Virus record (IMG/VR): IMGVR_UViG_3300031939_000012
Coordinates: 1-40,945 of that record
Strand: one strand, 5' to 3'
Length of the DNA: 40,945 nucleotides
Origin: a virus
Lineage: Duplodnaviria; Caudoviricetes
Part shown: piece by piece, positions 25,470 to 37,604 of the stretch
Numbering within the stretch: position 1 is the stretch's first letter
How the letters are laid out: the number at the start of each line of letters is the position of its first letter
Program-made: the position numbers and the translations under genes
The notes under the pieces: model-generated
What the model saw: only the letters and a program-made list of their open reading frames with translations
Database searches by the model: none
What the model was told of the DNA's origin: nothing

Positions 25470-26171
25470 TTACTGGCCAGTGCCGATCAGCACGCCGAAG
25501 ATCGGCTGAATGTCACTGCCGCCCGAAACTGACGATTTCAGGATGCGAACGGTCGGCATCGCATACCAGTGCGTGGTCTTGTACTGAATCGGAACGCCGA
25601 CCCCTGTGCTCCACGCCCACCCTGTGTTCGGGCCGTTCCATGAGATACCGGCGGCGGTGGGCACGAAGATGTCGCGCCCCGCGATGGTGGCGATGCGCTG
25701 CGCGATACCGATGCCGATGTTGGTGTTCACCGCGAACGGCTTCACGCTGGCTGGCAGCGCATCGATGAGCGTGAACGCGTAGGTTCCCGACGTATTGATC
25801 TGGTGCGCATAGAGCGCCGTGCCCGCGATCGCCGGCGAGGCGCCGGGCTGCGCGGAGAGGCCGGCCATATAAAGGTTCGCGATGCCCTGCTGGGCCTTCA
25901 TCGGCACGGCGAGGCAGAGCAGCACGGCGAACAGAACGATGGCGGCGTTCAGCCATCCGGAGACGATCGACTGGACCTTCGCCGCACTCAGGAAGAACGG
26001 CTTCTTCACGATGTCGATGGTGAGGTTCTGGCCGTCGTAGTCATAGCCGAGGGTGACGCCGCTCTTGGAGGCCTGGCCCCTGTAGGTATCGAGGCTAATG
26101 CCCTGCTCGCGGCGGAGCTGGTCGGCCTTCGCGTTGAACTGCGGCGGCGTGAGTGGAATTTTGAACGACAT
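25470..26171 (-). CDS. Putative outer-membrane beta-barrel protein with N-terminal soluble domain and internal signal/TM segment
   Basis: AAGGAG RBS; AAIVLFAVLLCLAVPMKA-QQ, then alternating Gly/aromatic beta-strands. Confidence 0.6.
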   Translation of the reverse strand: MSFKIPLTPPQFNAKADQLRREQGISLDTYRGQASKSGVTLGYDYDGQNLTIDIVKKPFFLSAAKVQSIVSGWLNAAIVLFAVLLCLAVPMKAQQGIANLYMAGLSAQPGASPAIAGTALYAHQINTSGTYAFTLIDALPASVKPFAVNTNIGIGIAQRIATIAGRDIFVPTAAGISWNGPNTGWAWSTGVGVPIQYKTTHWYAMPTVRILKSSVSGGSDIQPIFGVLIGTGQ

Positions 26172-26195
26172 GTGAAGCACTCCTTGGTTGGTGAG

Positions 26196-26465
26196 TTAGT
26201 CGGACCCGTTGTACGTGCTGAACTCTGCGTGCTCCTCGACCGAGACGTGCACCTCTTCGTTGGCCGCGAGCTGCGAGACCAGGCCGGCGATGCGCTGGTC
26301 GGCGAGCCGGTGCGCGTTCGAGGCGAGGTCCTGGATGAAGCGGAACCAATAGCCGTAGCGCGTGCGCTCCTGGCCGGTCGCGGGCGGAAGCATGGCGCCG
26401 GCGGCGCTATTGAAAACGGTGTAGACGATCACGGTCGCGATGATGGCGAGGACGCTCGGGTGCAT
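26196..26465 (-). CDS. Putative holin
   Basis: 89 aa; N-terminal TM and an amphipathic YGYWFRFIQ helix; TGATG-coupled to the endolysin. Confidence 0.55.
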   Translation of the reverse strand: MHPSVLAIIATVIVYTVFNSAAGAMLPPATGQERTRYGYWFRFIQDLASNAHRLADQRIAGLVSQLAANEEVHVSVEEHAEFSTYNGSD

Positions 26466-27391
26466 CAGGCTTTAGCCTCCTGGGCGGCGGAGAGGAACTG
26501 GGTGCGTGTCCAGGCGTTGCGCGCGTCGAACGCGCGGTTGCCGGGTTCGCGGGTGCACTCATCCGCGACGTGCTTCCAGTCGCGCATGCAGGCACAGGCG
26601 CAGAGCCGTGAGAATCCCAGCAGCCCGGTGGCCGGGGCGCCGGGGCGGTACGGCCGGCCCACGCCCATGTTGAACGCCATATCGAGCAGCCCGGCCTTCG
26701 CCGGGCCGGGGAACGAGTCGAAGCCGCGGAAGATGAGGCGGAGCTGCGTCAGGAATGTCTGGCAGCGCGAGCGCCGCAGTGTCGCGCGGTCGTCGGCTCG
26801 CAGTACCAGGCTGCTGGGCGAGAAGTAAAAGCTGGCGACGCGGCCGGGCGTCCTCGACGCGACGTGGTGAAACTCGGCGATGATCTGCTCCTGCGTGGCG
26901 AGCTCGCCGGCGGGAGTATGCAACGGCAGCGCGAGCGCGGCGTGCGCATCGGGAATCATCAGGCCGGATCCAGCGGTAACGTGGTCCGCGGTGTCGAGGT
27001 ACAGCCAGGAGATGTCACCTTCGAACGCGGGCAGGCGATGGTCGACGTAGTCGGCGAACCATGCCTCCTCGTCGGCCGCGCGCAGCGAGATACCATCGGG
27101 CGCCTGCTCGGCGGCCTCGATTGCCTTCAGCGCGATGGTGGGGTTGCCGCCTGAGTGGATCAGCGCCAGGACGAGCGAGTTAGTGTGCGTGGTGGAGCGA
27201 TCGATGTTCTGCAGGGTGAGCTCGATCTCGCGGCGCGGGACGAACTCCTTGGGCAGCTCCTTCTGGGCGGTCTCCAGCTCATCCACGCGGCGTTCCAGGC
27301 CGCGCAGGGTGGCGCGTGCGGCGGCCACAGCGGCGACCAGGGTGAGCCCCTGCGAGGCAAGGACGGCGATCAGAGTGTCATCAAAGGGCAT
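26465..27391 (-). CDS. Endolysin (GH24 lysozyme) with N-terminal hydrophobic and coiled-coil domain
   Basis: E-x8-D-x5-T triad (FEGDISWLYLDTADHVT), LLDMAFNMG, DW..VADEC, RNAW. Confidence 0.85.
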   Translation of the reverse strand: MPFDDTLIAVLASQGLTLVAAVAAARATLRGLERRVDELETAQKELPKEFVPRREIELTLQNIDRSTTHTNSLVLALIHSGGNPTIALKAIEAAEQAPDGISLRAADEEAWFADYVDHRLPAFEGDISWLYLDTADHVTAGSGLMIPDAHAALALPLHTPAGELATQEQIIAEFHHVASRTPGRVASFYFSPSSLVLRADDRATLRRSRCQTFLTQLRLIFRGFDSFPGPAKAGLLDMAFNMGVGRPYRPGAPATGLLGFSRLCACACMRDWKHVADECTREPGNRAFDARNAWTRTQFLSAAQEAKA

Positions 27392-27631: not shown

Positions 27632-27747
27632 GGGAGGAGATGGTGCAGCACGCGCAGGCCGTAGAGCGCGACAACGAAGAAGCCGGCGCCCGCCAGCACG
27701 AAAGGCCAACGGGCGAGGGCTGCGGGTTTGATCTCCACTCGGTGCAT
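27628..27747 (-). CDS. Small TM peptide, 39 aa (not in ORF track)
   Basis: MHRVEIKPAALARWPFVLAGAGFFVVALYGLRVLHHLLP; AGGA RBS. Confidence 0.45.
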   Translation of the reverse strand: MHRVEIKPAALARWPFVLAGAGFFVVALYGLRVLHHLLP

Positions 27748-27751
27748 GGTC

Positions 27752-30085
27752 CTACCAAGCCGCCGTCGCGGTGCATGTTGTGTTCGTGTCGAAGTTGCCC
27801 GCGCCCGCGTCTGGAGAGAACTGCACCTGATAGACGCCCGACGTACTGTTGCGCCATACGCCCTGATCGCGCCGTGCGGTTGCTCCGGCCGTCGTGTCGC
27901 TGTCGAAGCGTATGGAATCAGACACGATGTTTTTACGGATGTTCGGACTTGTGTAGTCGTAAATCGTAATGTCCGTCGTCCCCATCTGCCCCGCTGGTGC
28001 CGCCGAGCCGGGTAGACTTCCGGCCGGGTAGAACCCGCCGTTGTTGAAGGATTGCCCGACGTACGAGGAACTGCCCGGATTGGCGGCCACCATCAACGCA
28101 TAGCCATAGTTCGTCGAGCCGGCATCTCCGTTGAGCATCAAGTCCCACGAGGACGCGCCGCTCGTTGTGCGGCCCGAGCATGTAAATTGCAGCTTATGTC
28201 CGCAACTCGGAATCGCGTAGAAGATGATGGAAGCCGCGGGGGCCGCGAGCGTTTGCGTTTGTGTCCAGCACTCCGGCTGCGTCCCAAGGTGCGGGTTTCC
28301 AACCGTATAGAAGCCGAGCGAGGCTGCGTTGCCCTCTTGCGTCGTGACGAGTTGGGCAAGCGTCATCGGCGCGGCCAGGAGCTTGATATGGTTGAAGTCT
28401 CCCGGCGTGGGCGTTTGGTTATCCGTCGCCGACATATAGGCGTAGGTCACGCCGTTTATGCTGCTCGGGACGCCGTCAATCTGCGCAATGGAGAAGTCCC
28501 CAATCTGCCCCGGACCTCCAGGTGTCACGGTTGGCCCCTCATCAAGCGATTGCCGAGTGACCGCGCCGTTCGGCGTGTCGAGCGTCCAGACGTGTTGCTG
28601 CGAGTCCGATGACTTCCAGCGGAATACATCCGTCGGAGTGCCGCCGTTGACGCCCGCGACCAGGCCGTACTTGTCGCAGTGCAGCCACGTATAGAAAGCG
28701 CCGCTGACCTGTACCGTCGAGCGAGCGCCGCCGCACATCCCCCCTTGCGCCCAATTACTTCCGCTGTAGCCGCCCCAGCTGATTACCGGGTTGCCGCTGT
28801 ACGCCGTTGCCGTGTATCCCGCCGTTGGCGCGCCCGCCGTGTTGCCGGAAGCGCGGCCTACTCGCCAGAACCCATCTGATCCGAGGGCTTCATAGAGAAA
28901 CTGCCATACTCCATTAGAGTCCACCCACCAGTCGATATTGCCCTTTTGCCCCGAGTCCCACGAAGTTCCGCCGAGCTGCGGAATGAAGCCCGTTTCGAGG
29001 ATCGACCATGTTTGACCGTCGGTCGATACGGCGATGGTGAAGCTCGTCGGGTCGACGCCGTACTGCTGCCCAATCCAGTAGTAATTTCCCCCGGCGAACT
29101 TCTTTACGCGGCCGTGGTAGAAGCCCGGCCCAATAACGGGCTCGCCGTTATTTTGGGGGACCATATGCATTGGGTCTTGGCCGTAGAAGTGGCAGATGCC
29201 AGCGGTTGTATATCCGCACGTCTCGAAAGCTTCCCAAAATGCCGGGTTGCCGTCCGGGTGATAGAGAAGACTCGATTCTTGATATGTCTGCTGGTTGCGC
29301 GCGCCGCCGACGAAGACCGTCCCGAGGCGTTGCCACACGCCGCCGATAGGCTGCTTTGTGTCCGTGTACTGCTTCGTCGCCGGCTGAAGCGCCTGCGTCG
29401 GATCCGCGGCGAGCGTCACGGTCGAGCCAAACGTCGTCGCGTTCGGAACTGTCCCACCCGTAAACGTAGTGCCGGCATGGTTGTCCACGTAGTGCTTGTC
29501 AGCGGCCTGCAGGTCGGTCGTTGGGTCGCCAGGCAGCACGATCGCATTCGTAACCGTGCCGCCATTGAACGCGGGGTTGTTCACGATCGTAGTGCCGCCG
29601 CCCATGTTCTGCGTCGGGATGTTCGGCGTGAAGGTTTTGAAGAGGTCGAGATTGCATGAACTAGTCGAGCACCATCCCGCAGTAACCGCGGCCGAGCCGG
29701 TGGTGATCGATGGCTGCACGCAGGTATAGTTCGGCAGGTCCTCGGTGTAGTTCGATGGATCCTGATAGCTGAACGCGAGACACACATTCTGCGGTGTGGT
29801 GTTGTACGTGTCCGGAACGGTTGTGGAGAACGCGCCGCCGGTGACGGGCACCTGAACGCACGCGGCGAGGCCTGTGCCGCCGCCGGCGACGTTGAAAGCG
29901 ATCGGCACGCCCTTATCGGTGACCGGGCAGATGGTGATGTTACCGGTGACGGGCTGGCCGGTGACGGTCTTGAGGTTCGTCGCGGTGAGCGGGATCTGCG
30001 CAACCATAGGCGCGGAACCCAGGCATGCGCCCAGTCCGAGGATGAGTGTGGTCGCGAGGCGGCGAAGCGAAAAGCGAGGTTGCAT
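27752..30085 (-). CDS. Tail fibre / receptor-binding-like protein with beta-propeller glycosidase-like domain and N-terminal signal peptide
   Basis: Follows the tail tip gene; two DPT..LQ.A.K.Y.D fibre repeats; GH32/43-like propeller motifs (WDSG, WQFLYEA, VGRA, YSGNPVI); MQPRFSLRRLATTLILGLGACLGSAPMVA-Q leader. Confidence 0.65.
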   Translation of the reverse strand: MQPRFSLRRLATTLILGLGACLGSAPMVAQIPLTATNLKTVTGQPVTGNITICPVTDKGVPIAFNVAGGGTGLAACVQVPVTGGAFSTTVPDTYNTTPQNVCLAFSYQDPSNYTEDLPNYTCVQPSITTGSAAVTAGWCSTSSCNLDLFKTFTPNIPTQNMGGGTTIVNNPAFNGGTVTNAIVLPGDPTTDLQAADKHYVDNHAGTTFTGGTVPNATTFGSTVTLAADPTQALQPATKQYTDTKQPIGGVWQRLGTVFVGGARNQQTYQESSLLYHPDGNPAFWEAFETCGYTTAGICHFYGQDPMHMVPQNNGEPVIGPGFYHGRVKKFAGGNYYWIGQQYGVDPTSFTIAVSTDGQTWSILETGFIPQLGGTSWDSGQKGNIDWWVDSNGVWQFLYEALGSDGFWRVGRASGNTAGAPTAGYTATAYSGNPVISWGGYSGSNWAQGGMCGGARSTVQVSGAFYTWLHCDKYGLVAGVNGGTPTDVFRWKSSDSQQHVWTLDTPNGAVTRQSLDEGPTVTPGGPGQIGDFSIAQIDGVPSSINGVTYAYMSATDNQTPTPGDFNHIKLLAAPMTLAQLVTTQEGNAASLGFYTVGNPHLGTQPECWTQTQTLAAPAASIIFYAIPSCGHKLQFTCSGRTTSGASSWDLMLNGDAGSTNYGYALMVAANPGSSSYVGQSFNNGGFYPAGSLPGSAAPAGQMGTTDITIYDYTSPNIRKNIVSDSIRFDSDTTAGATARRDQGVWRNSTSGVYQVQFSPDAGAGNFDTNTTCTATAAW

Positions 30086-30133
30086 GCGGTGTTCTAGGCC
30101 GCATGCGGAGAAATCGTCAAAAGGTTGCGGGCA

Positions 30134-33100
30134 TCACTCTTCCGAAACGGGCTGCAGCATCTTGGCGTTATGCGTCCAGGAGGCGGTCGCGGCGCGCGTG
30201 CCGACCATGTACTCGTGGTCCGGGCCGTCGAGCTCGATGCGCAGCACCTCGGCGGCGCCCTCGATGCGTTGCGGGTGGAGCGCGCGGAAGCCCTGCGCGA
30301 CCGTTTCGACCCGCCGCCGCTCGCGCAGCGTGGAGCACCAGCGATAGTGCCCGTCCTCGGTGCGCAGGGTGTGGCTGGCGGACGCGGCGTAGATATCGCA
30401 GCCCTCGATGTGCAGGCGGAAGGTGTACGGGACCGAAACCCACTCGGCGGAGCGGATGCGCTCCGGTCCGCGGCGGCCATCGAGATAGACGTCCTCGCCG
30501 GCGGCGAAGCGGCGCTGGATCTCCTCGTTGGAGACGCCCACGCCCTGGATGAGGAGCGGCGTGCCGCGCACCGTGCAGGCCACCGGGTACGGGTTGGACG
30601 TGATGCCGGAGCCGCCGGGGCTTCCACTGCCCGTCGCCACGGTGGCCATCTGGAAGCCGCCGGAGGTGAGAGCAATGCGACCATCCTGGCGGCAGGCGGC
30701 ATCGGCGTAGATGTCGAAGGCGGTCGCCAGAAGCGCGGGTGTGCCGGCCGCGCCGGTCTGCGGAGCCGCCGCCTTCACGCCGCCGTACATGATGTCGAAG
30801 TAGAGGAATGCCCAGTAGTTGGTGCTCTGGGCGAGGCCGGTGAATTCCATCGAGCCGGGCTGAATCTGGGTCACCGCTCCATCGGGCCAGAGAATGGCGA
30901 TGTTGCCCCAGGAGATCGTGATGGCGCTGTCGGACGACGAGTAGGTGAAGGTTCCGGTAAACGTCGGCAATACCGAGCCCTGCACCCGCAGACCGGTGCT
31001 CGAGCCAGACTGGAAGATATCGAGCACGTTGCCCTGCACATCGAGGTCAGCCCACGCACTCGCCACGACGACGCCCTCCTGTGACTCCTCCAGCAACAGG
31101 TGTGAGAAGGTCAGGGTCGAGCCCACAGGGATGTTGACGGTTGTGCCGCCGATGCCGATGTACACGCCGATGTCTGCCGTGCCCGCGGGGATCTGGAACG
31201 AGGCTGTGTTGGTGCGGTTCAGCGTCGGCGTTGTGCCGTTCAGTGGAATGAAGCACTGTCGCACGCCGGTCTGATTGCCGCTCGCGTCCAGGAAGAAGAC
31301 GCCGAAGATAACCTGGCCCACGTTGGGCGCCGAGCCTGAAACGCAGGTGTCTTCGAAGTAGCCGGAGAGCAGCAGATAATCGCCGACGCTCCACTTGCTG
31401 CGCGAGATCATCTGGAACGCGAAGGTTGTCGAGGCAGTGATAGCCGAGCCGGCGACGGTGTACTCGGCCTCGCCGTCGTTAGCGAACGTCGGCACAAACG
31501 TGTCGCCGGCGCGCGGTGTGACGGACCAGTAGGTGAAGCCCGAAGCAAACGTGCTGTCCAGCAGCAGGTTGGTCGCGATGCCGACCGCGTCGATCGTCAC
31601 CGTGGGCGCGGTGGTGAAGCCCGCATAAAGATTCTTCGCGTCGAAGCCAATCACGCTGTAGTCGTAGCTCGACCCGGGTGCCTGTTGCCCCTGCCAGCTG
31701 GTGACGCCCGCACCCAGCCGCTCGACGAGCTTAGGTGTGGCCGTGCTCCCGGTGATCTTCGCGTAGATGCCGACGCCGGCAGTGTCCGGGCCGTTCTGCC
31801 AGGCCAGCGACGCATAGCTGACATAGCTTCCGCTGACCGTCTTGAAGAGCTCTTTGCCGCTCAGGTTGATGACGCCGGGATTGGATTTCACGATGGCCGA
31901 GGCCTCGCCGATGATCGGCGTCGCGACATCGTAGATGCGGCTGTCGTAGTCGAGCCATTCGATCATCGAGCGGTTCTCGCTGGCGCGTTTGATGTTGGTG
32001 ATGCGCACCCATTTCGTCGCGCCAGCCACACCGTAGATGTAGTTCGAATAATCTTCCGGTGCGCGGGAGAGCGGCGTCGCGAGCTGCACTAGGGCTTCGG
32101 TGCCCTGCACTGTGACACTGGCGACGGCCGCGGTTTCGAGCACGTCGGTGTCATGCAGCGAGACGGTTTGCCCCGCGAGCGGGACGAAGCCCGGCGGCGG
32201 CGATACGATAACGCTCTGCACGTCCGAGCGAAGCACCGCGCAGTCATGGCTCTTGCCGTCGGATGAGACGACCAGCGCGCGGGTGATGCGGGTGTTGTTC
32301 GCCCAGCTCGGCACGGTGAGCGTATAGCCCGCCGGGCTGGTCGATGCGGCGACGGCCGAGATGTTTGCCGTGGCGAGCCGCAGCACGTCCGGGTGCTGCA
32401 CCATGACGGTGTAGTTCGTGCCGGCCACGAAGGGAACGTCGTTGCGATCGAGCAGCAGCGCATTCGCCGTTGAGCCGGGCAGCGTGCGTCCGCCGCAGCC
32501 CCATTGCGGAACGTCATGCTGCAACGCCACGACGTTGTACGGGCGGCAGGCGATGCCGTCGGTGTCGGTGCGGAAGCTGCCGGAGCGCAAGAGAAACTGG
32601 TTGCCGCGCTCCTTGTAACGTGCGTGGTGCCAGGCCTGCGCCGGGATGGTGATGCCGCGGCCGTTGATACGCACGGGCTTGGGCACGGCCCCGGTGTTCT
32701 GCTTCGTGGGGTCCATGTAGACCAGCGGATTGTCCTGCTTGTAGTAGCGCGTGGAGTCGGCGAACTGCACCTCCACCTGATTGGCGCGCTCGTCGATCGG
32801 CAGCCACGCCTCGGAAAACGAGTCCTGCAGGATGTTGCCGACGGTGAACATCTGCACCGGCGCATCCACCGGCGCGTCCAGCGCGACGGCGTAGTCTGTG
32901 CCGACGGGAACGATGGCCGCGCGCGACATGCCGGTGACGGATTGCAACTGCGTCCAGAGATCGCTCTCGTTGTCGAAGACGCCGTTGTAGACGCACATCC
33001 GAATAGAGTTGCCGTTCCCGTCGGCCACCAGTGTGTCGTTGTTCTCCGCCCAGGCCACCCACTCGTCGATGTAGCGCTCGATGTTCGGGGGCACGACACC

Positions 33101-34774
33101 GGGCCACGCACCGCCGCCGTAGAGATCGTCGAGCAGCATGTCCTCGGCGACGCAGGCGGGATTGTCCTCCTCGTAGGCCATCAGCTCCGCCGGCATCAGT
33201 CCGGTGTCGCGGGTGCGCAAGCCGTGCTCGACCAGCGCGGTAATGCTGAGGTTCTGGCCGGAGAGCTGCGACGTCGCCAGCGCGCGCACCGCCACCAGAA
33301 TCATGTTGGGATACACGAGATCCAGATAGGCGACCTCGTTGACCGAATGTACCCACAGGTCCTGCCCGATGTCGGGCGCCCAGTTGTCGCCGGGAAAGAC
33401 GTCGTCGTGCAGCCGCGCCGTGCCGTACTTGATGATCTGCACGTCATACTTCGCGGGCGCGAGGCCGAGAATCTGGGTGCGCGAGTAGTACGGCGTGGTC
33501 TGCGCGGCGATCGCCTCGACATAGCCGTCCGTCCAGGTGAGGACCTGAACGTAATTCATATTGATATCGAGCAACTGCCATTCGCCCGCGGCGGGCTTCT
33601 GGTAGGTGTAGTGATTGCCGTTGGGCGCGAAGTTCTCGGTGGTGAGTGTCCCGGTCCATTTATCGCCGGGGGTGTGCGGCCCATCGTCCAGCGCGTAGAC
33701 CACGCCCGAGCCCGCCGGCATATCCGTCGCGACCACGCCCCAGGCGTGCGGCAGATAGGCGCTGCCGTCGGCGTGGAGCTGGACGACCGGTGCGGTCGTC
33801 TGCGGTTGCACCACCGGGATCCAGTCGCCCGCCGGCGTCGAGCCCACCGCGGCGGTGCGGTAGAAGACCTGGTAGGTCATCACGGCCGGGATGATGTGGC
33901 CCAGCGAGGTCTCGACGAACAGGCCGGAGGGGAACGAGACATCGACCTGGATGGCCTGCGTGAGAACGCCGGTGCCCGGGATGACGACCGCCTGCCCGGC
34001 GAGGCACTGCGTCGATTGCGGATAGCCGTTGACGATCTGATTGAATTGCGCGATCTCGGTCTGGTCGTTGGTGCCTAGCCGCGTGTAGTACTGCACGTTC
34101 TGGTAGCTGGAGATCGGCTTGCCGTTGATCTCGATGTCGGTGATGGAGCGCGCCGGACCGAAGCCGTAGCAGGCGAGGGCATTGATGAACTGGTCGGAGC
34201 CCGCGATCTCGGTGAAGCTGGAGATGATGTTGCCGCCCCAGCGAAACGTCCCGTTGCCCTTGGGAATGACCGTGCCGGAGCGCGCCAGCGACTTGGGGCC
34301 GTCCGGGTCGTAACTGGGCGAGCTGCTCTTGCTGGAGGGCGAAGACGGCCCCATGAACGCGGAGAGGAGCAGGTTGCCGGCGATGGATACCGCGCCCGCC
34401 AGCATGGTCGAGGTCATCGCAATGCTCATGCCGAGTAGCGCGACGCCCGCGCCCGCGGACATCACGGACACGGCGGCCGCCGCGGCGATGATCGCCACGC
34501 TCGCCAGCGTGCGCAGGATGCCGCCCCCGTGAACGATCGGCGCGATGACGACGGAGTCGCCGCCGCGCGGCGTAACCTCACTCCAAAGCGAGCGCTCCCA
34601 GGTGTGGCCGTTGACCGAGACGCTGACGGTTGCGGCCCAGGTATCGAATTCCAGCGTGTCGCATCCGTAGAGCCGCATCAGGTGTTCGAGCGTGAGGTAC
34701 TCGGGCTCGACGTCCTCGATGACGCGGTCGCGCGACGGGTCGACGGGGTTGGTGATGCGGATGAGGCGGATCAA
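30134..34774 (-). CDS. Central tail tip / host specificity protein (gpI-gpJ-like fusion) with C-terminal Hint domain
   Basis: Ubiquitin-like gpI start (VSVNG...GDSVVIAP..HGGG); gpJ motifs (GPARSI, YPN, DNPA, MFTVGNI, ERANQVEVQF); TTG start behind GGAGG. Confidence 0.88.
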   Translation of the reverse strand: MIRLIRITNPVDPSRDRVIEDVEPEYLTLEHLMRLYGCDTLEFDTWAATVSVSVNGHTWERSLWSEVTPRGGDSVVIAPIVHGGGILRTLASVAIIAAAAAVSVMSAGAGVALLGMSIAMTSTMLAGAVSIAGNLLLSAFMGPSSPSSKSSSPSYDPDGPKSLARSGTVIPKGNGTFRWGGNIISSFTEIAGSDQFINALACYGFGPARSITDIEINGKPISSYQNVQYYTRLGTNDQTEIAQFNQIVNGYPQSTQCLAGQAVVIPGTGVLTQAIQVDVSFPSGLFVETSLGHIIPAVMTYQVFYRTAAVGSTPAGDWIPVVQPQTTAPVVQLHADGSAYLPHAWGVVATDMPAGSGVVYALDDGPHTPGDKWTGTLTTENFAPNGNHYTYQKPAAGEWQLLDINMNYVQVLTWTDGYVEAIAAQTTPYYSRTQILGLAPAKYDVQIIKYGTARLHDDVFPGDNWAPDIGQDLWVHSVNEVAYLDLVYPNMILVAVRALATSQLSGQNLSITALVEHGLRTRDTGLMPAELMAYEEDNPACVAEDMLLDDLYGGGAWPGVVPPNIERYIDEWVAWAENNDTLVADGNGNSIRMCVYNGVFDNESDLWTQLQSVTGMSRAAIVPVGTDYAVALDAPVDAPVQMFTVGNILQDSFSEAWLPIDERANQVEVQFADSTRYYKQDNPLVYMDPTKQNTGAVPKPVRINGRGITIPAQAWHHARYKERGNQFLLRSGSFRTDTDGIACRPYNVVALQHDVPQWGCGGRTLPGSTANALLLDRNDVPFVAGTNYTVMVQHPDVLRLATANISAVAASTSPAGYTLTVPSWANNTRITRALVVSSDGKSHDCAVLRSDVQSVIVSPPPGFVPLAGQTVSLHDTDVLETAAVASVTVQGTEALVQLATPLSRAPEDYSNYIYGVAGATKWVRITNIKRASENRSMIEWLDYDSRIYDVATPIIGEASAIVKSNPGVINLSGKELFKTVSGSYVSYASLAWQNGPDTAGVGIYAKITGSTATPKLVERLGAGVTSWQGQQAPGSSYDYSVIGFDAKNLYAGFTTAPTVTIDAVGIATNLLLDSTFASGFTYWSVTPRAGDTFVPTFANDGEAEYTVAGSAITASTTFAFQMISRSKWSVGDYLLLSGYFEDTCVSGSAPNVGQVIFGVFFLDASGNQTGVRQCFIPLNGTTPTLNRTNTASFQIPAGTADIGVYIGIGGTTVNIPVGSTLTFSHLLLEESQEGVVVASAWADLDVQGNVLDIFQSGSSTGLRVQGSVLPTFTGTFTYSSSDSAITISWGNIAILWPDGAVTQIQPGSMEFTGLAQSTNYWAFLYFDIMYGGVKAAAPQTGAAGTPALLATAFDIYADAACRQDGRIALTSGGFQMATVATGSGSPGGSGITSNPYPVACTVRGTPLLIQGVGVSNEEIQRRFAAGEDVYLDGRRGPERIRSAEWVSVPYTFRLHIEGCDIYAASASHTLRTEDGHYRWCSTLRERRRVETVAQGFRALHPQRIEGAAEVLRIELDGPDHEYMVGTRAATASWTHNAKMLQPVSEE
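30167..30577 (-). other. Hint (intein-like) domain, 137 aa, within the tail tip gene
   Basis: Block A CTVRGTPL, block B ASASH, block F VLRIELDGPDHEYMV, terminal WTHN followed by AK. Confidence 0.8.
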
Positions 34775-35918: not shown

Positions 35919-36284
35919 CTAGACCTCCCGGATCGCGAAGGTGCAGTTCTGGCGGAACTCGCCTTCGATGTTGTTGGCGTCGGCGTAGGCGGGCAGCGTG
36001 GAGAAGCGCACCACATAGCTCTGCGGGTGCTTCGGATCGCGGTTGTCCGGGAAGGTGAAGCTGTTGGCGCCGTAGACGGCGAGGTTCTCGACGAAGTTAT
36101 CCAGCACCGTCACGTCGGCCGGCGTGAGGAAGTCGATCGAGACGTTCCACTCCCGGCGGCGTCGCTTGTAGCGGGCGCGGGTGGACTCCATGCCATTCTC
36201 GTAGCTGTCGCGCAGTGTCGGGTCGAGCGTTTTGGCCTGCGTCTTCAGCGCGGGCTTGCGGCTCAACTTGGGAAAGGTAATCAC
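35919..36284 (-). CDS. Distal tail protein (gpM-like)
   Basis: 121 aa upstream of gpL-like; YENG.E..RAR, YVVRF and IREV end. Confidence 0.75.
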   Translation of the reverse strand: MITFPKLSRKPALKTQAKTLDPTLRDSYENGMESTRARYKRRRREWNVSIDFLTPADVTVLDNFVENLAVYGANSFTFPDNRDPKHPQSYVVRFSTLPAYADANNIEGEFRQNCTFAIREV

Positions 36285-36339: not shown

Positions 36340-37089
36340 GTGCCCGCGTTCGAAATAAAGTGCGATGTGTCCGGCGCCGTCGAAGGCATGGAGAAGCTGC
36401 TGGGCGATGACCTGCCCTTCGCGGTTGCGCTGTTCCTGACGAAGCAGGCCCAGACCGGGCAGAAGGCCGCGCGCGGGCTGGAGCAGTCCGGCATCTTCCG
36501 GCTGCGCAACGACTGGACAGTGCGCAACACGAAGATCGAAGCCGCGACGAAGAAGAACCTGCAGTCGATCGTCTACACCGACACATCGAACTGGACGACC
36601 GGAGCGCCGGATTATCTACCGCGGCAAGGCGAAGGCGGCGAGCGCGTCCCGGTCGACGGCCGTCAGCACCTGGCCATTCCGACCGACTATCTGCGCCGCC
36701 TCGCCGGCGGCCCCGATAAGCCTATCCCCGACTGGCTACGGCCGAAGGCGCTGCTGGAATACGCGCGCAACAATGGCAAGTGGACGGCGGTGCGCGGCAA
36801 ACTGAGGGGCCAGCTCCGCGGCGCGCCTCAAGCCGTTCGCGGCATGTACTTCTTCCGCGTGACGTTCAAGAGCGGCGCCGAGGGCATCCTGGCACGCTAC
36901 GTCTCGGATCCGCGTGAGCAGGTTTATCCGATGTACATCTTCGTGACCAGGGCGCATCTGCGGAAGCGGTTTCCGATGGAACAGAGCGTGGAGCAGCAGC
37001 TGGCGCAGAGCATGGATCAGGACTTCGAACGCGCCGCGCTCGAGGTCTTCACGAATCGCGACCTGGGCTGGGCGCGCGTAACGTTCTAG
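36340..37089 (+). CDS. Tail completion / neck protein (gpZ-like), inverted orientation
   Basis: LPFAVALFLTKQA...F...WT...EAATKKNL...YL..Q.EGGER...LAIP pattern; no other gpZ candidate in the connector cluster. Confidence 0.6.
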   Translation: MPAFEIKCDVSGAVEGMEKLLGDDLPFAVALFLTKQAQTGQKAARGLEQSGIFRLRNDWTVRNTKIEAATKKNLQSIVYTDTSNWTTGAPDYLPRQGEGGERVPVDGRQHLAIPTDYLRRLAGGPDKPIPDWLRPKALLEYARNNGKWTAVRGKLRGQLRGAPQAVRGMYFFRVTFKSGAEGILARYVSDPREQVYPMYIFVTRAHLRKRFPMEQSVEQQLAQSMDQDFERAALEVFTNRDLGWARVTF

Positions 37090-37604
37090 CCAATAACCAG
37101 CAGTCCCTCGCCTTCGAAGCTCAGCCGTCCATTGAACCGTTCGGAGCTGGCCGACAAGCTGACGCGCGTGGATTTGTAAGCGGCCTTCTCGCGCAGCAGA
37201 ATCGCCGCGCCCGTGAAGGTGACCTGGGTGAGTGTCCAGACCGCGGCGCGCATGTCGGCGACGTGGCACTCGATCATCTCGTAGCTCATGCCCAGCTCGC
37301 GCGCCTGGTCTGACATGGCCTCGCAGATCTCCGGGAAGTCGTGGCCGTAGATATGTCCGCGGACGCGCAGCTCGTCGCCTTCGATGAAGGCTTCATTGAT
37401 CAGACCGCACTTCTGGCGCGGATTGTGGCCGTCCAGGTCGGCCGTAAAGCCGACAGCCATGCCGAGCAGCGTGGGGATGGCCTCTTCGGCCGCCGCGCGG
37501 GTGAGCAGCACGCGATGGCCGCGCGCGCCAGAGGGCGCGGAGTCGGAGGGAATATCCAGGCGCGTCAGTACGCCTTCAAAGGGGAGCCGGTTGGGGTGTT
37601 TCAC
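37086..37604 (-). CDS. Stand-alone prohead-protease-like protein
   Basis: DGH...CGLINEAFIEGDELRVRGHI...LGMSYE...FTGAAIL...AAYKST: His/Ser assemblin-type layout. Confidence 0.65.
   Translation of the reverse strand: MKHPNRLPFEGVLTRLDIPSDSAPSGARGHRVLLTRAAAEEAIPTLLGMAVGFTADLDGHNPRQKCGLINEAFIEGDELRVRGHIYGHDFPEICEAMSDQARELGMSYEMIECHVADMRAAVWTLTQVTFTGAAILLREKAAYKSTRVSLSASSERFNGRLSFEGEGLLVIG

What the first reader, a model, noticed from the sequence alone, without database searches (positions are those of the whole stretch)
27752..30577. Candidate new system: self-processing Hint-tipped tail protein paired with an exported fibre/glycosidase
Seen: the gpJ-like protein ends in a Gly/Ser linker and a Hint domain. 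The next gene, with its own promoter-like motif, encodes a fibre-like protein with a signal peptide. Known: Hint domains form a thioester at Cys1 that an external nucleophile can resolve (Hedgehog, BIL domains); virion proteins normally assemble in the cytoplasm without signal peptides. Inference (speculative): the receptor-binding protein folds in the periplasm and is added to the tail only at or after lysis, possibly via the activated or newly exposed C-terminus of J. This would be a two-compartment route to virion maturation.
Basis: partly seen in the sequence, partly recalled or inferred. Interest (0 to 1): 0.85.

Follow-up and report, generated by a model that had tools for sequence, protein, structure and literature searches.

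The report
Exported side fibre, self-cleaving tail tip
This soil phage, likely of Acidobacteria, encodes a side tail fibre with a predicted bacterial export signal and paired cysteines, so the fibre likely folds outside the cytoplasm and would clamp onto the finished particle only when the cell bursts; the predicted self-cutting domain on the neighbouring tail-tip protein comes and goes in relatives independently of it.

Summary
Both features are real, but they are not one system. The window is a complete lambda-like temperate phage whose relatives are Acidobacteriaceae prophages. J ends in a Gly/Pro linker, a Hint fold (Cys1, His-Asn) and a 10-residue tail: a type-A BIL-like domain. It is optional (9 of 48 J units), scattered on the J tree, and uncoupled from the exported fibre (6/9 vs 17/39, p=0.28). 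Covalent joining through the thioester is unlikely. Its tail carries a Lys within six residues in 54 of 57 homologues.

The next gene is the stronger finding. It has a Sec-type leader, an N-domain whose predicted fold best matches phage fibre collars (including lambda StfN), fibre repeats and a glycosidase-like propeller. The same N-domain occurs with and without a leader in the same gene slot. Three cysteine pairs appear only in leader-bearing copies (17, 17 and 15 of 22 vs 0 of 15). Best reading: a periplasm-folded side fibre that docks on the tail collar at lysis (about 50%). Virion binding is untested. The scan noted such fibres earlier in other Acidobacteria phages.

The parts
30134..34774 (-). 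gpI/gpJ-like central tail fibre, 1546 aa from TTG 34774 (the open frame extends to GTG 34846)
   Evidence: PHROG31 E 3e-78, Pfam Lambda_tail_I at the N-terminus; database record starts here
30578..30652 (-). Gly/Ser-rich then Pro-rich linker; 9 Hint-less J relatives end in a similar Gly/Pro-rich tail after the same domain
30167..30577 (-). Hint domain, 137 aa: Cys1 (C1400), block-B His (H1468), His-Asn end (N1536); type-A BIL-like
30137..30166 (-). 10-residue tail after the Hint; Ala at +1 (no Cys/Ser/Thr), Lys at +2
   Evidence: Lys within +1..+6 in 54 of 57 homologous tails
30091..30121 (-). promoter-like two-box motif ending 5 nt before the ATG, no Shine-Dalgarno; shared with other head and tail genes
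   Evidence: not found by the strict sigma-70 scan
29999..30085 (-). predicted Sec signal peptide, residues 1-29 (cleavage before Gln30 inferred from homologues)
29630..29998 (-). N-domain (ND), predicted StfN/collar-type beta-sandwich with six Cys in three family-level pairs
29351..29608 (-). two fibre-type repeats
   Evidence: PHROG tail fibre families, E 1e-6 to 7e-4
28316..29350 (-). predicted five-bladed beta-propeller, GH32/43/130-like; catalysis untested
   Evidence: Atlas structure search, TM 0.69-0.75 by target; one homologue in L024
27755..28288 (-). C-terminal domain, unassigned (likely the fibre tip)
   Evidence: no Pfam, PHROG or NCBIfam hit
35919..36284 (-). gpM/Dit-like distal tail protein, the expected docking site of the fibre N-domain (inferred from lambda)
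   Evidence: Pfam DUF2460 weak, PHROG384; PMC12617516

Best explanation
The 777-aa gene is a lambda Stf-like side fibre that is predicted to be exported by Sec, likely folds and forms disulfides in the periplasm, and would dock through its collar-type N-domain onto tails built in the cytoplasm when the compartments mix at lysis, while the Hint on J is a separate, optional module that likely cuts itself off. Shown here: gene position, leader-like N-terminus, cysteine pairs confined to leader-bearing copies, interchange of leader-bearing and leaderless versions in one slot, independence from the Hint. Predicted: the collar fold, the propeller and the Hint fold. Inferred: export, trimerisation, docking at the gpM/tube junction after holin and endolysin action, and binding or cutting of a host surface glycan by the propeller. 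For the Hint, Cys1 would form a thioester and Asn cyclisation would free the short tail. Hydrolysis would leave J with the Gly/Pro end that Hint-less relatives encode directly. The conserved Lys suggests that part of the product is instead resolved by the tail peptide, through its alpha-amine or the Lys side chain.
For: (1) The four best of 48,161 solved chains for the ND model are phage neck or tail-tip parts: A-1(L) neck/neck fibre Z 8.5 (rmsd 3.4, 101 aligned), Bxb1 tail tip Z 8.3 (2.7, 82), Ur-lambda tail tip chain Ta Z 7.7 (2.8, 91 of 94) and XM1 neck Z 6.6. The 94-residue chain length equals gpStfN in PMC12617516. (2) ND genes occur with a leader (32) and without (22), with 3 label changes on the tree, 2 forced by supported branches. 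Both types carry the same kinds of fibre head (SGNH esterase, collagen repeats). (3) Cys pairs: 17/22, 17/22 and 15/22 in leader-bearing NDs vs 0/15 each in leaderless ones; mean Cys 4.4 vs 1.2; even mature Cys count in 18 of 20 vs 8 of 17 complete proteins. (4) Gln follows a small-residue site in 22 of 24 leader-bearing copies. (5) ND was found in 16 of 301 Acidobacteriaceae-family genomes. Of 14 examined, 10 lie beside PHROG tail genes, 1 beside a tape-measure-like gene, 2 in Mu-like elements and 1 is unresolved. In 4 whole host genomes ND occurs only in the prophage slot. (6) The upstream motif is shared with head and tail genes. (7) Hint independence: p=0.28, and p=1.0 among ND carriers; 8 changes for 9 of 48 units against a shuffled mean of 8.5.
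Against: No direct evidence places the protein on virions. No cultured phage matched ND or the Hint region. Z 7.7-8.5 is near the level that common beta-sandwiches reach, pilin domains score 6.5, and Foldseek gave no match at E<=0.001 (best 0.011, Bxb1). Leader status changes only 2-3 times on the tree, so the cysteine counts are not independent observations. Cytoplasm-made J also has 14 Cys. Signal peptides were called by my own rules. Dilution at lysis could make docking inefficient. The block-B His is missing in 16 of 60 Hints, so activity may vary. 11 of 48 units have no ND gene in the DNA held, two of them with under 2 kb downstream.
Confidence: 0.5

Rival explanations
1. The exported fibre never joins the particle. 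It acts in the envelope (receptor masking, superinfection exclusion) or is released at lysis as a free glycan-degrading protein that clears capsule or EPS for the progeny.
For: Export separates it from tail assembly; it carries a glycosidase-like propeller; it has its own promoter-like motif; exported phage-like fibres exist on Bdellovibrio cells (PMC10769870).
Against: The collar fold is kept. Leaderless versions, which should be ordinary side fibres, occupy the same slot with the same head types. The motif is shared with morphogenesis genes. ND genes sit inside tail operons, even between the tape measure and Dit genes.
Confidence: 0.3
2. The leader is not a cleaved export signal. It tethers the fibre to the inner membrane, or an internal start (Met27 here) gives a cytoplasmic form that assembles normally and oxidises after lysis.
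For: Met27 lies just before the mature start; no dedicated predictor was run; Met at -3 is atypical.
Against: Cys pairs track the leader. Gln follows the predicted site in 22 of 24. The promoter-like motif is spaced for the first ATG. A Met at this place is not general among the leaders listed.
Confidence: 0.12
3. One reading: the J-Hint thioester, or the exposed J C-terminus, captures the exported fibre.
For: The genes are adjacent; 6 of 9 Hint units have a leader-bearing ND fibre; a Hint thioester can be resolved by a Lys of another protein (BIL2, PMC8616854).
Against: 17 of 23 leader-bearing units lack the Hint. The nearest J relative (L066, 65% identical) is Hint-less with two leader-bearing fibres. 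The fibre has its own collar anchor. A thioester would have to survive from J folding until lysis (inference). An N-terminal Gln often cyclises and loses its amine (recalled, not tested).
Confidence: 0.05
4. Hint only: it is a near-neutral passenger that spreads by recombination at the Gly-rich linker and removes itself, with no benefit to the phage.
For: It is optional and scattered; Hint-less ends resemble the cleaved end; one copy has an internal stop (L051 vs L052).
Against: There is no homing endonuclease to drive spread. His-Asn and a position-flexible Lys are kept across divergent hosts and protein types, against 3% Lys background.
Confidence: 0.4

Closest known systems
Ur-lambda side tail fibre gpStf, N-terminal collar domain (PDB 9E7M; PMC12617516, passages read)
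   Same: Gene downstream of J in a lambdoid tail module; predicted N-domain fold (Z 7.7, rmsd 2.8, 91 aligned); fibre stalk and variable head; apparently dispensable.
   Different: Here a Sec-type leader and leader-linked Cys pairs; glycosidase-like propeller head; no sequence-level match to Pfam or PDB chains. That Stf is made in the cytoplasm without a leader is recalled.
Type A bacterial intein-like (BIL) domains (PMC4031507, passages read; C. thermocellum BIL, 2LWY)
   Same: Hint fold, Cys1, C-terminal His-Asn, no +1 Cys/Ser/Thr.
   Different: Sits at the extreme C-terminus of a phage tail-tip protein with a median 6-residue tail that nearly always holds a Lys; no Pfam BIL profile hit.
Tetrahymena BUBL BIL2 (PMC8616854, passages read)
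   Same: Precedent for a Hint thioester resolved by a Lys to give an isopeptide bond; structural match Z 15.3.
   Different: Eukaryotic and flanked by ubiquitin-like domains; the Lys role here is only inferred.
Bdellovibrio MAT fibres (PMC10769870, passages read)
   Same: [quoted passage not shown]
   Different: Bacterial surface proteins, not prophage tail genes; homology of the two N-domains was not tested.
Peptidase S74 intramolecular chaperones (PMC12403621, PMC10769870, passages read)
   Same: Self-removing C-terminal module on a tail fibre.
   Different: Ser-Lys dyad and a trimerisation role; unrelated fold; the Hint here is optional.

Membership tests
Type A BIL | Hint fold | tested here: met
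   AF2 model pLDDT 90; Z 16.1, rmsd 2.0, 129 aligned to 2LWY
Type A BIL | Cys1 and C-terminal His-Asn | tested here: met
   C1400 and H-N1536; Cys in 57 of 60, Asn in 58 of 60, the rest gaps (the profile was seeded from Cys..HN sequences)
Type A BIL | No Cys/Ser/Thr at +1 | tested here: met
   Ala here; Ser or Thr in 7 of 57 homologues
Type A BIL | Match to curated BIL/Hint profiles | tested here: inconclusive
   No hit for this protein; 1 of 32 homologues hits Vint at 6e-5
Type A BIL | Autocleavage and some splicing | not testable with these tools
   needs expression and mass spectrometry
Canonical intein | +1 Cys/Ser/Thr nucleophile and a substantial C-extein | tested here: not met
   Ala at +1; 10-residue tail
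Hedgehog autoprocessing domain | C-terminal sterol-recognition region after the Hint (definition recalled) | tested here: not met
   only 10 residues follow the Hint
Lambda Stf-type side fibre | N-terminal collar beta-sandwich | tested here: met
   top four structural matches are phage neck or tail-tip parts, Z 6.6-8.5; moderate scores from a predicted model
Lambda Stf-type side fibre | Tail-module position and fibre stalk | tested here: met
Lambda Stf-type side fibre | Cytoplasmic synthesis without a signal peptide (recalled) | tested here: not met
   leader present; leaderless family members exist
Lambda Stf-type side fibre | Trimer docked as a 12-mer collar on the tube/gpM junction | not tested
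   the complex prediction never ran because the queue was full
Bdellovibrio MAT | Chromosomal, non-prophage surface fibre | tested here: not met
   phage tail context
GH32/43/130 glycosidase | Five-bladed propeller with catalytic acids | tested here: inconclusive
   fold by Atlas model; E270, D385 and D530 shared with the single homologue; no Pfam hit

The most novel reading that the evidence does not exclude
Tailed phages of Acidobacteria build virions in two compartments: Sec-exported, disulfide-bonded side fibres wait in the periplasm and snap onto the tail collar at lysis, and the same anchor domain has switched between cytoplasmic and exported forms more than once. Separately, tail-tip Hint domains use a conserved tail Lys for isopeptide-type splicing.
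Probability: 0.45. Interest if true: 0.85.

Novelty: new variant of a known kind. Interest (0 to 1): 0.66.

Why it matters
Tailed-phage particles are taken to assemble wholly in the cytoplasm. A side-fibre family that exists in both leaderless and exported, disulfide-bonded forms would add a maturation step at lysis, and it supplies its own natural control. It is testable by inducing an Acidobacteriaceae prophage, and it would suggest a route to loading disulfide-rich binders on phage tails. The Hint gives BIL-type domains a concrete virion setting and a specific prediction (the tail Lys), although it is probably incidental to the fibre.

Tried and rejected
Coupling of Hint and exported fibre: rejected. 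A fibre-specific promoter: rejected, the motif is shared. A terminator-like hairpin after the fibre (27682-27697) is at chance level (4 found, 2.2 +/- 1.6 expected). Profile and sequence searches missed the Hint (Pfam, NCBIfam, PDB sequences) and the ND. Single-protein scans of viral contigs found no relatives, and alignments A2 and A3 were too diverse to scan with. No shorter homologues of residues 248-777 were found, and the Atlas feature search gave no usable hit. Cultured-phage tblastn gave no match for ND or the Hint region and only distant J matches of about 25%. No RNA holder was listed, which says nothing on expression. The complex prediction of ND with gpM was never run because the queue was full, so there is no verdict on binding. 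Ten literature searches listed no paper on signal-peptide-bearing virion fibres or on Hint-tipped gpJ. The library is open-access only and no supplements were read. The Tunturi phage paper has no occurrence of 'signal peptide' or 'mass spectrometry' in its main text (PMC11924767). Passages of PMC5259590, PMC5723332, PMC7824862, PMC3556154 and PMC6116005 gave only terminase or reductase inteins, unassigned signal peptides or endolysin leaders.

Full report
Context. The window is a complete circular phage genome with a 127-nt terminal overlap (100% complete virus record). It has a lambda-type terminase and portal, a fused protease-capsid, tube, tape measure, gpM/L/K/J, an integrase and a repressor. 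Holders are soil metagenomes. The closest J relatives in genomes are mostly Acidobacteriaceae prophages, and the nearest on the tree is from a Granulicella genome at 65% identity. The host is therefore inferred.

The Hint. J ends in a Gly/Ser/Pro linker, C1400 to H-N1536, and ten residues. Profiles miss it, but the model is confident (pLDDT 90) and matches inteins and BILs at Z up to 17.3. Of 17 other J proteins found with the C-terminal region, 13 carry the Hint and 4 lack it. Related Hints also end short tail proteins and a GTA-megatron-like protein. Among 60 dereplicated Hints (of 70 hits), Cys1 is present in 57, the last Asn in 58 and the block-B His in 44; the missing Cys and Asn are gaps. 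The profile was seeded from sequences picked for Cys and HN, so that conservation is partly built in. Only 7 of 57 tails begin with Ser or Thr. This fits the type A BIL definition (His-Asn end, no +1 nucleophile, cleavage dominating, some splicing through the freed amine; PMC4031507, passages). The tails are short (median 6) and hold a Lys within +1..+3 in 46 of 57 and within +1..+6 in 54 of 57, against 3% Lys elsewhere. Two of the three exceptions have a Cys instead. A Lys-resolved Hint thioester has precedent in Tetrahymena BIL2 (PMC8616854, passages). A Lys role here is inference.

Coupling test. From 112 loci I kept L001-L072, L095 and the window, and left out 39 distant loci. Ten loci whose J ran off the contig were dropped. 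The remaining 64 collapse to 48 units. Hint-bearing units: 6 with a leader-bearing ND fibre, 3 with a leaderless one. Hint-less units: 17, 11, and 11 with no ND gene. Fisher p=0.28, and p=1.0 among ND carriers. The Hint needs 8 changes for 9 units on the J tree, the same as shuffled labels. Nine Hint-less J clusters end in the same domain plus a Gly/Pro tail like the predicted cleavage product. The two traits are independent, so the proposed coupled system is not supported.

The exported fibre. Its parts are a leader (1-29), ND (30-152), two repeats matching PHROG tail fibres, a five-bladed GH32/43/130-like propeller (246-590; Atlas model) and an unassigned C-terminal domain. [quoted passage not shown] These Z values are moderate, pilin domains reach 6.5, and Foldseek found nothing at E<=0.001.

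The family supplies an internal control. The same ND follows J either with or without a leader. A post-hoc rule separates them 24/24 against 0/17 with 1 of 300 controls flagged; the looser rule flagged 29 of 300. Three Cys pairs are complete in 17, 17 and 15 of 22 leader-bearing NDs and in 0 of 15 leaderless ones. With 17 more domains from host genomes the means are 4.4 and 1.2 Cys, and the leader label changes 3 times, 2 forced. That is few independent events. Gln follows the predicted site in 22 of 24. Both forms carry SGNH esterase or collagen modules. ND was found in 16 of 301 family genomes (the tally includes one unpublished genome that I did not examine and the genome of L066). Of the 14 examined, 10 lie beside PHROG tail genes, some between tape measure and Dit, 1 beside a tape-measure-like gene, 2 in Mu-like elements and 1 is unresolved. 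The upstream two-box motif scores at least 10 bits in 28 of the 40 training regions. In the window it ranks the fibre start first, followed by head-tail joining, chaperone and gpM genes. That points to a shared, probably leaderless, late class and not to a lysogenic moron; this is inference.

Mechanism. Most likely the fibre is made late, exported, oxidised and trimerised in the periplasm. After holin and endolysin act, particles meet it inside the outer-membrane sac and 12 N-domains close a collar on the distal tail. Export is well supported indirectly. Docking rests on the retained fold and the slot interchange, and I put it at about 50%. The main rival is an envelope-resident or free glycan-active protein (30%). 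The complex prediction could not be run because the queue was full.

Novelty. The parts belong to known kinds (Stf-like fibre, type A BIL-like Hint). Ten literature searches listed no paper on leader-bearing virion fibres or on Hint-tipped gpJ; the library is open-access only and I read no supplements. The nearest printed analogue is the Bdellovibrio MAT family (PMC10769870, passages). Earlier unchecked notes of this scan report the same leader-plus-cysteine fibres in other Acidobacteria phages and Hints on other phage fibre proteins. They are not independent support. A search for notes on the gpJ Hint with its Lys found none. Verdict: new variant of a known kind, interest 0.66.

Noticed in passing
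window 30137-30166 and 57 homologous Hint tails: Lys within six residues after His-Asn in 54 of 57 tails, at variable position; several tails read Lys-x-x-Cys.
   Followed up: partly
L140 (G196:C25), L143, L144, L148: In HK97-like prophages ND genes follow the tape measure gene directly, and precede Dit in L140, L143 and L148; L140 has three leader-bearing ND proteins there, one with an internal ND.
   Followed up: partly
L002, L003, L006, L015, L062, L067, L068: A leaderless ND gene is followed by a second, leader-bearing fibre-like gene: a possible cytoplasmic adaptor plus exported distal fibre.
   Followed up: no
window 37086-37604 (-): Conserved 172-aa ORF between tape measure and gpM, with homologues in 15 loci including the window; it looks like a prohead-protease-like protein by eye, with no Pfam or PHROG hit.
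   Followed up: no
window 26465-27391 (-): Lysis gene with an N-terminal hydrophobic and coiled-coil part fused to a lysozyme-like part; a homologue hits Phage_lysozyme at 6e-5.
   Followed up: partly
window 25470-26180 (-): Orphan 236-aa ORF: small N-domain, an internal signal-like hydrophobic stretch, then a beta-rich part; no homologue in the fetched loci.
   Followed up: no
window 30121, 36284, 7642, 209, 27431, 4707 (-): Two-box promoter-like motif 5-10 nt before start codons of many late genes, without Shine-Dalgarno, suggesting leaderless transcripts.
   Followed up: partly
L051:5690-6091 vs L052: Near-identical phages, one with a stop codon inside the Hint, so J keeps Cys1 and a short Hint stub.
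   Followed up: partly
L031, L035, L013, L029, L050, L069: A second tail-tube-like gene occurs, in L029, L031 and L035 just after gpM; a small beta domain is shared between tube N-termini and some leaderless ND proteins.
   Followed up: no
L046-L059 group: J cores at least 90% identical carry different C-terminal ends and next genes (Hint plus exported fibre, or a short J plus a leaderless non-ND protein): recent module exchange.
   Followed up: partly
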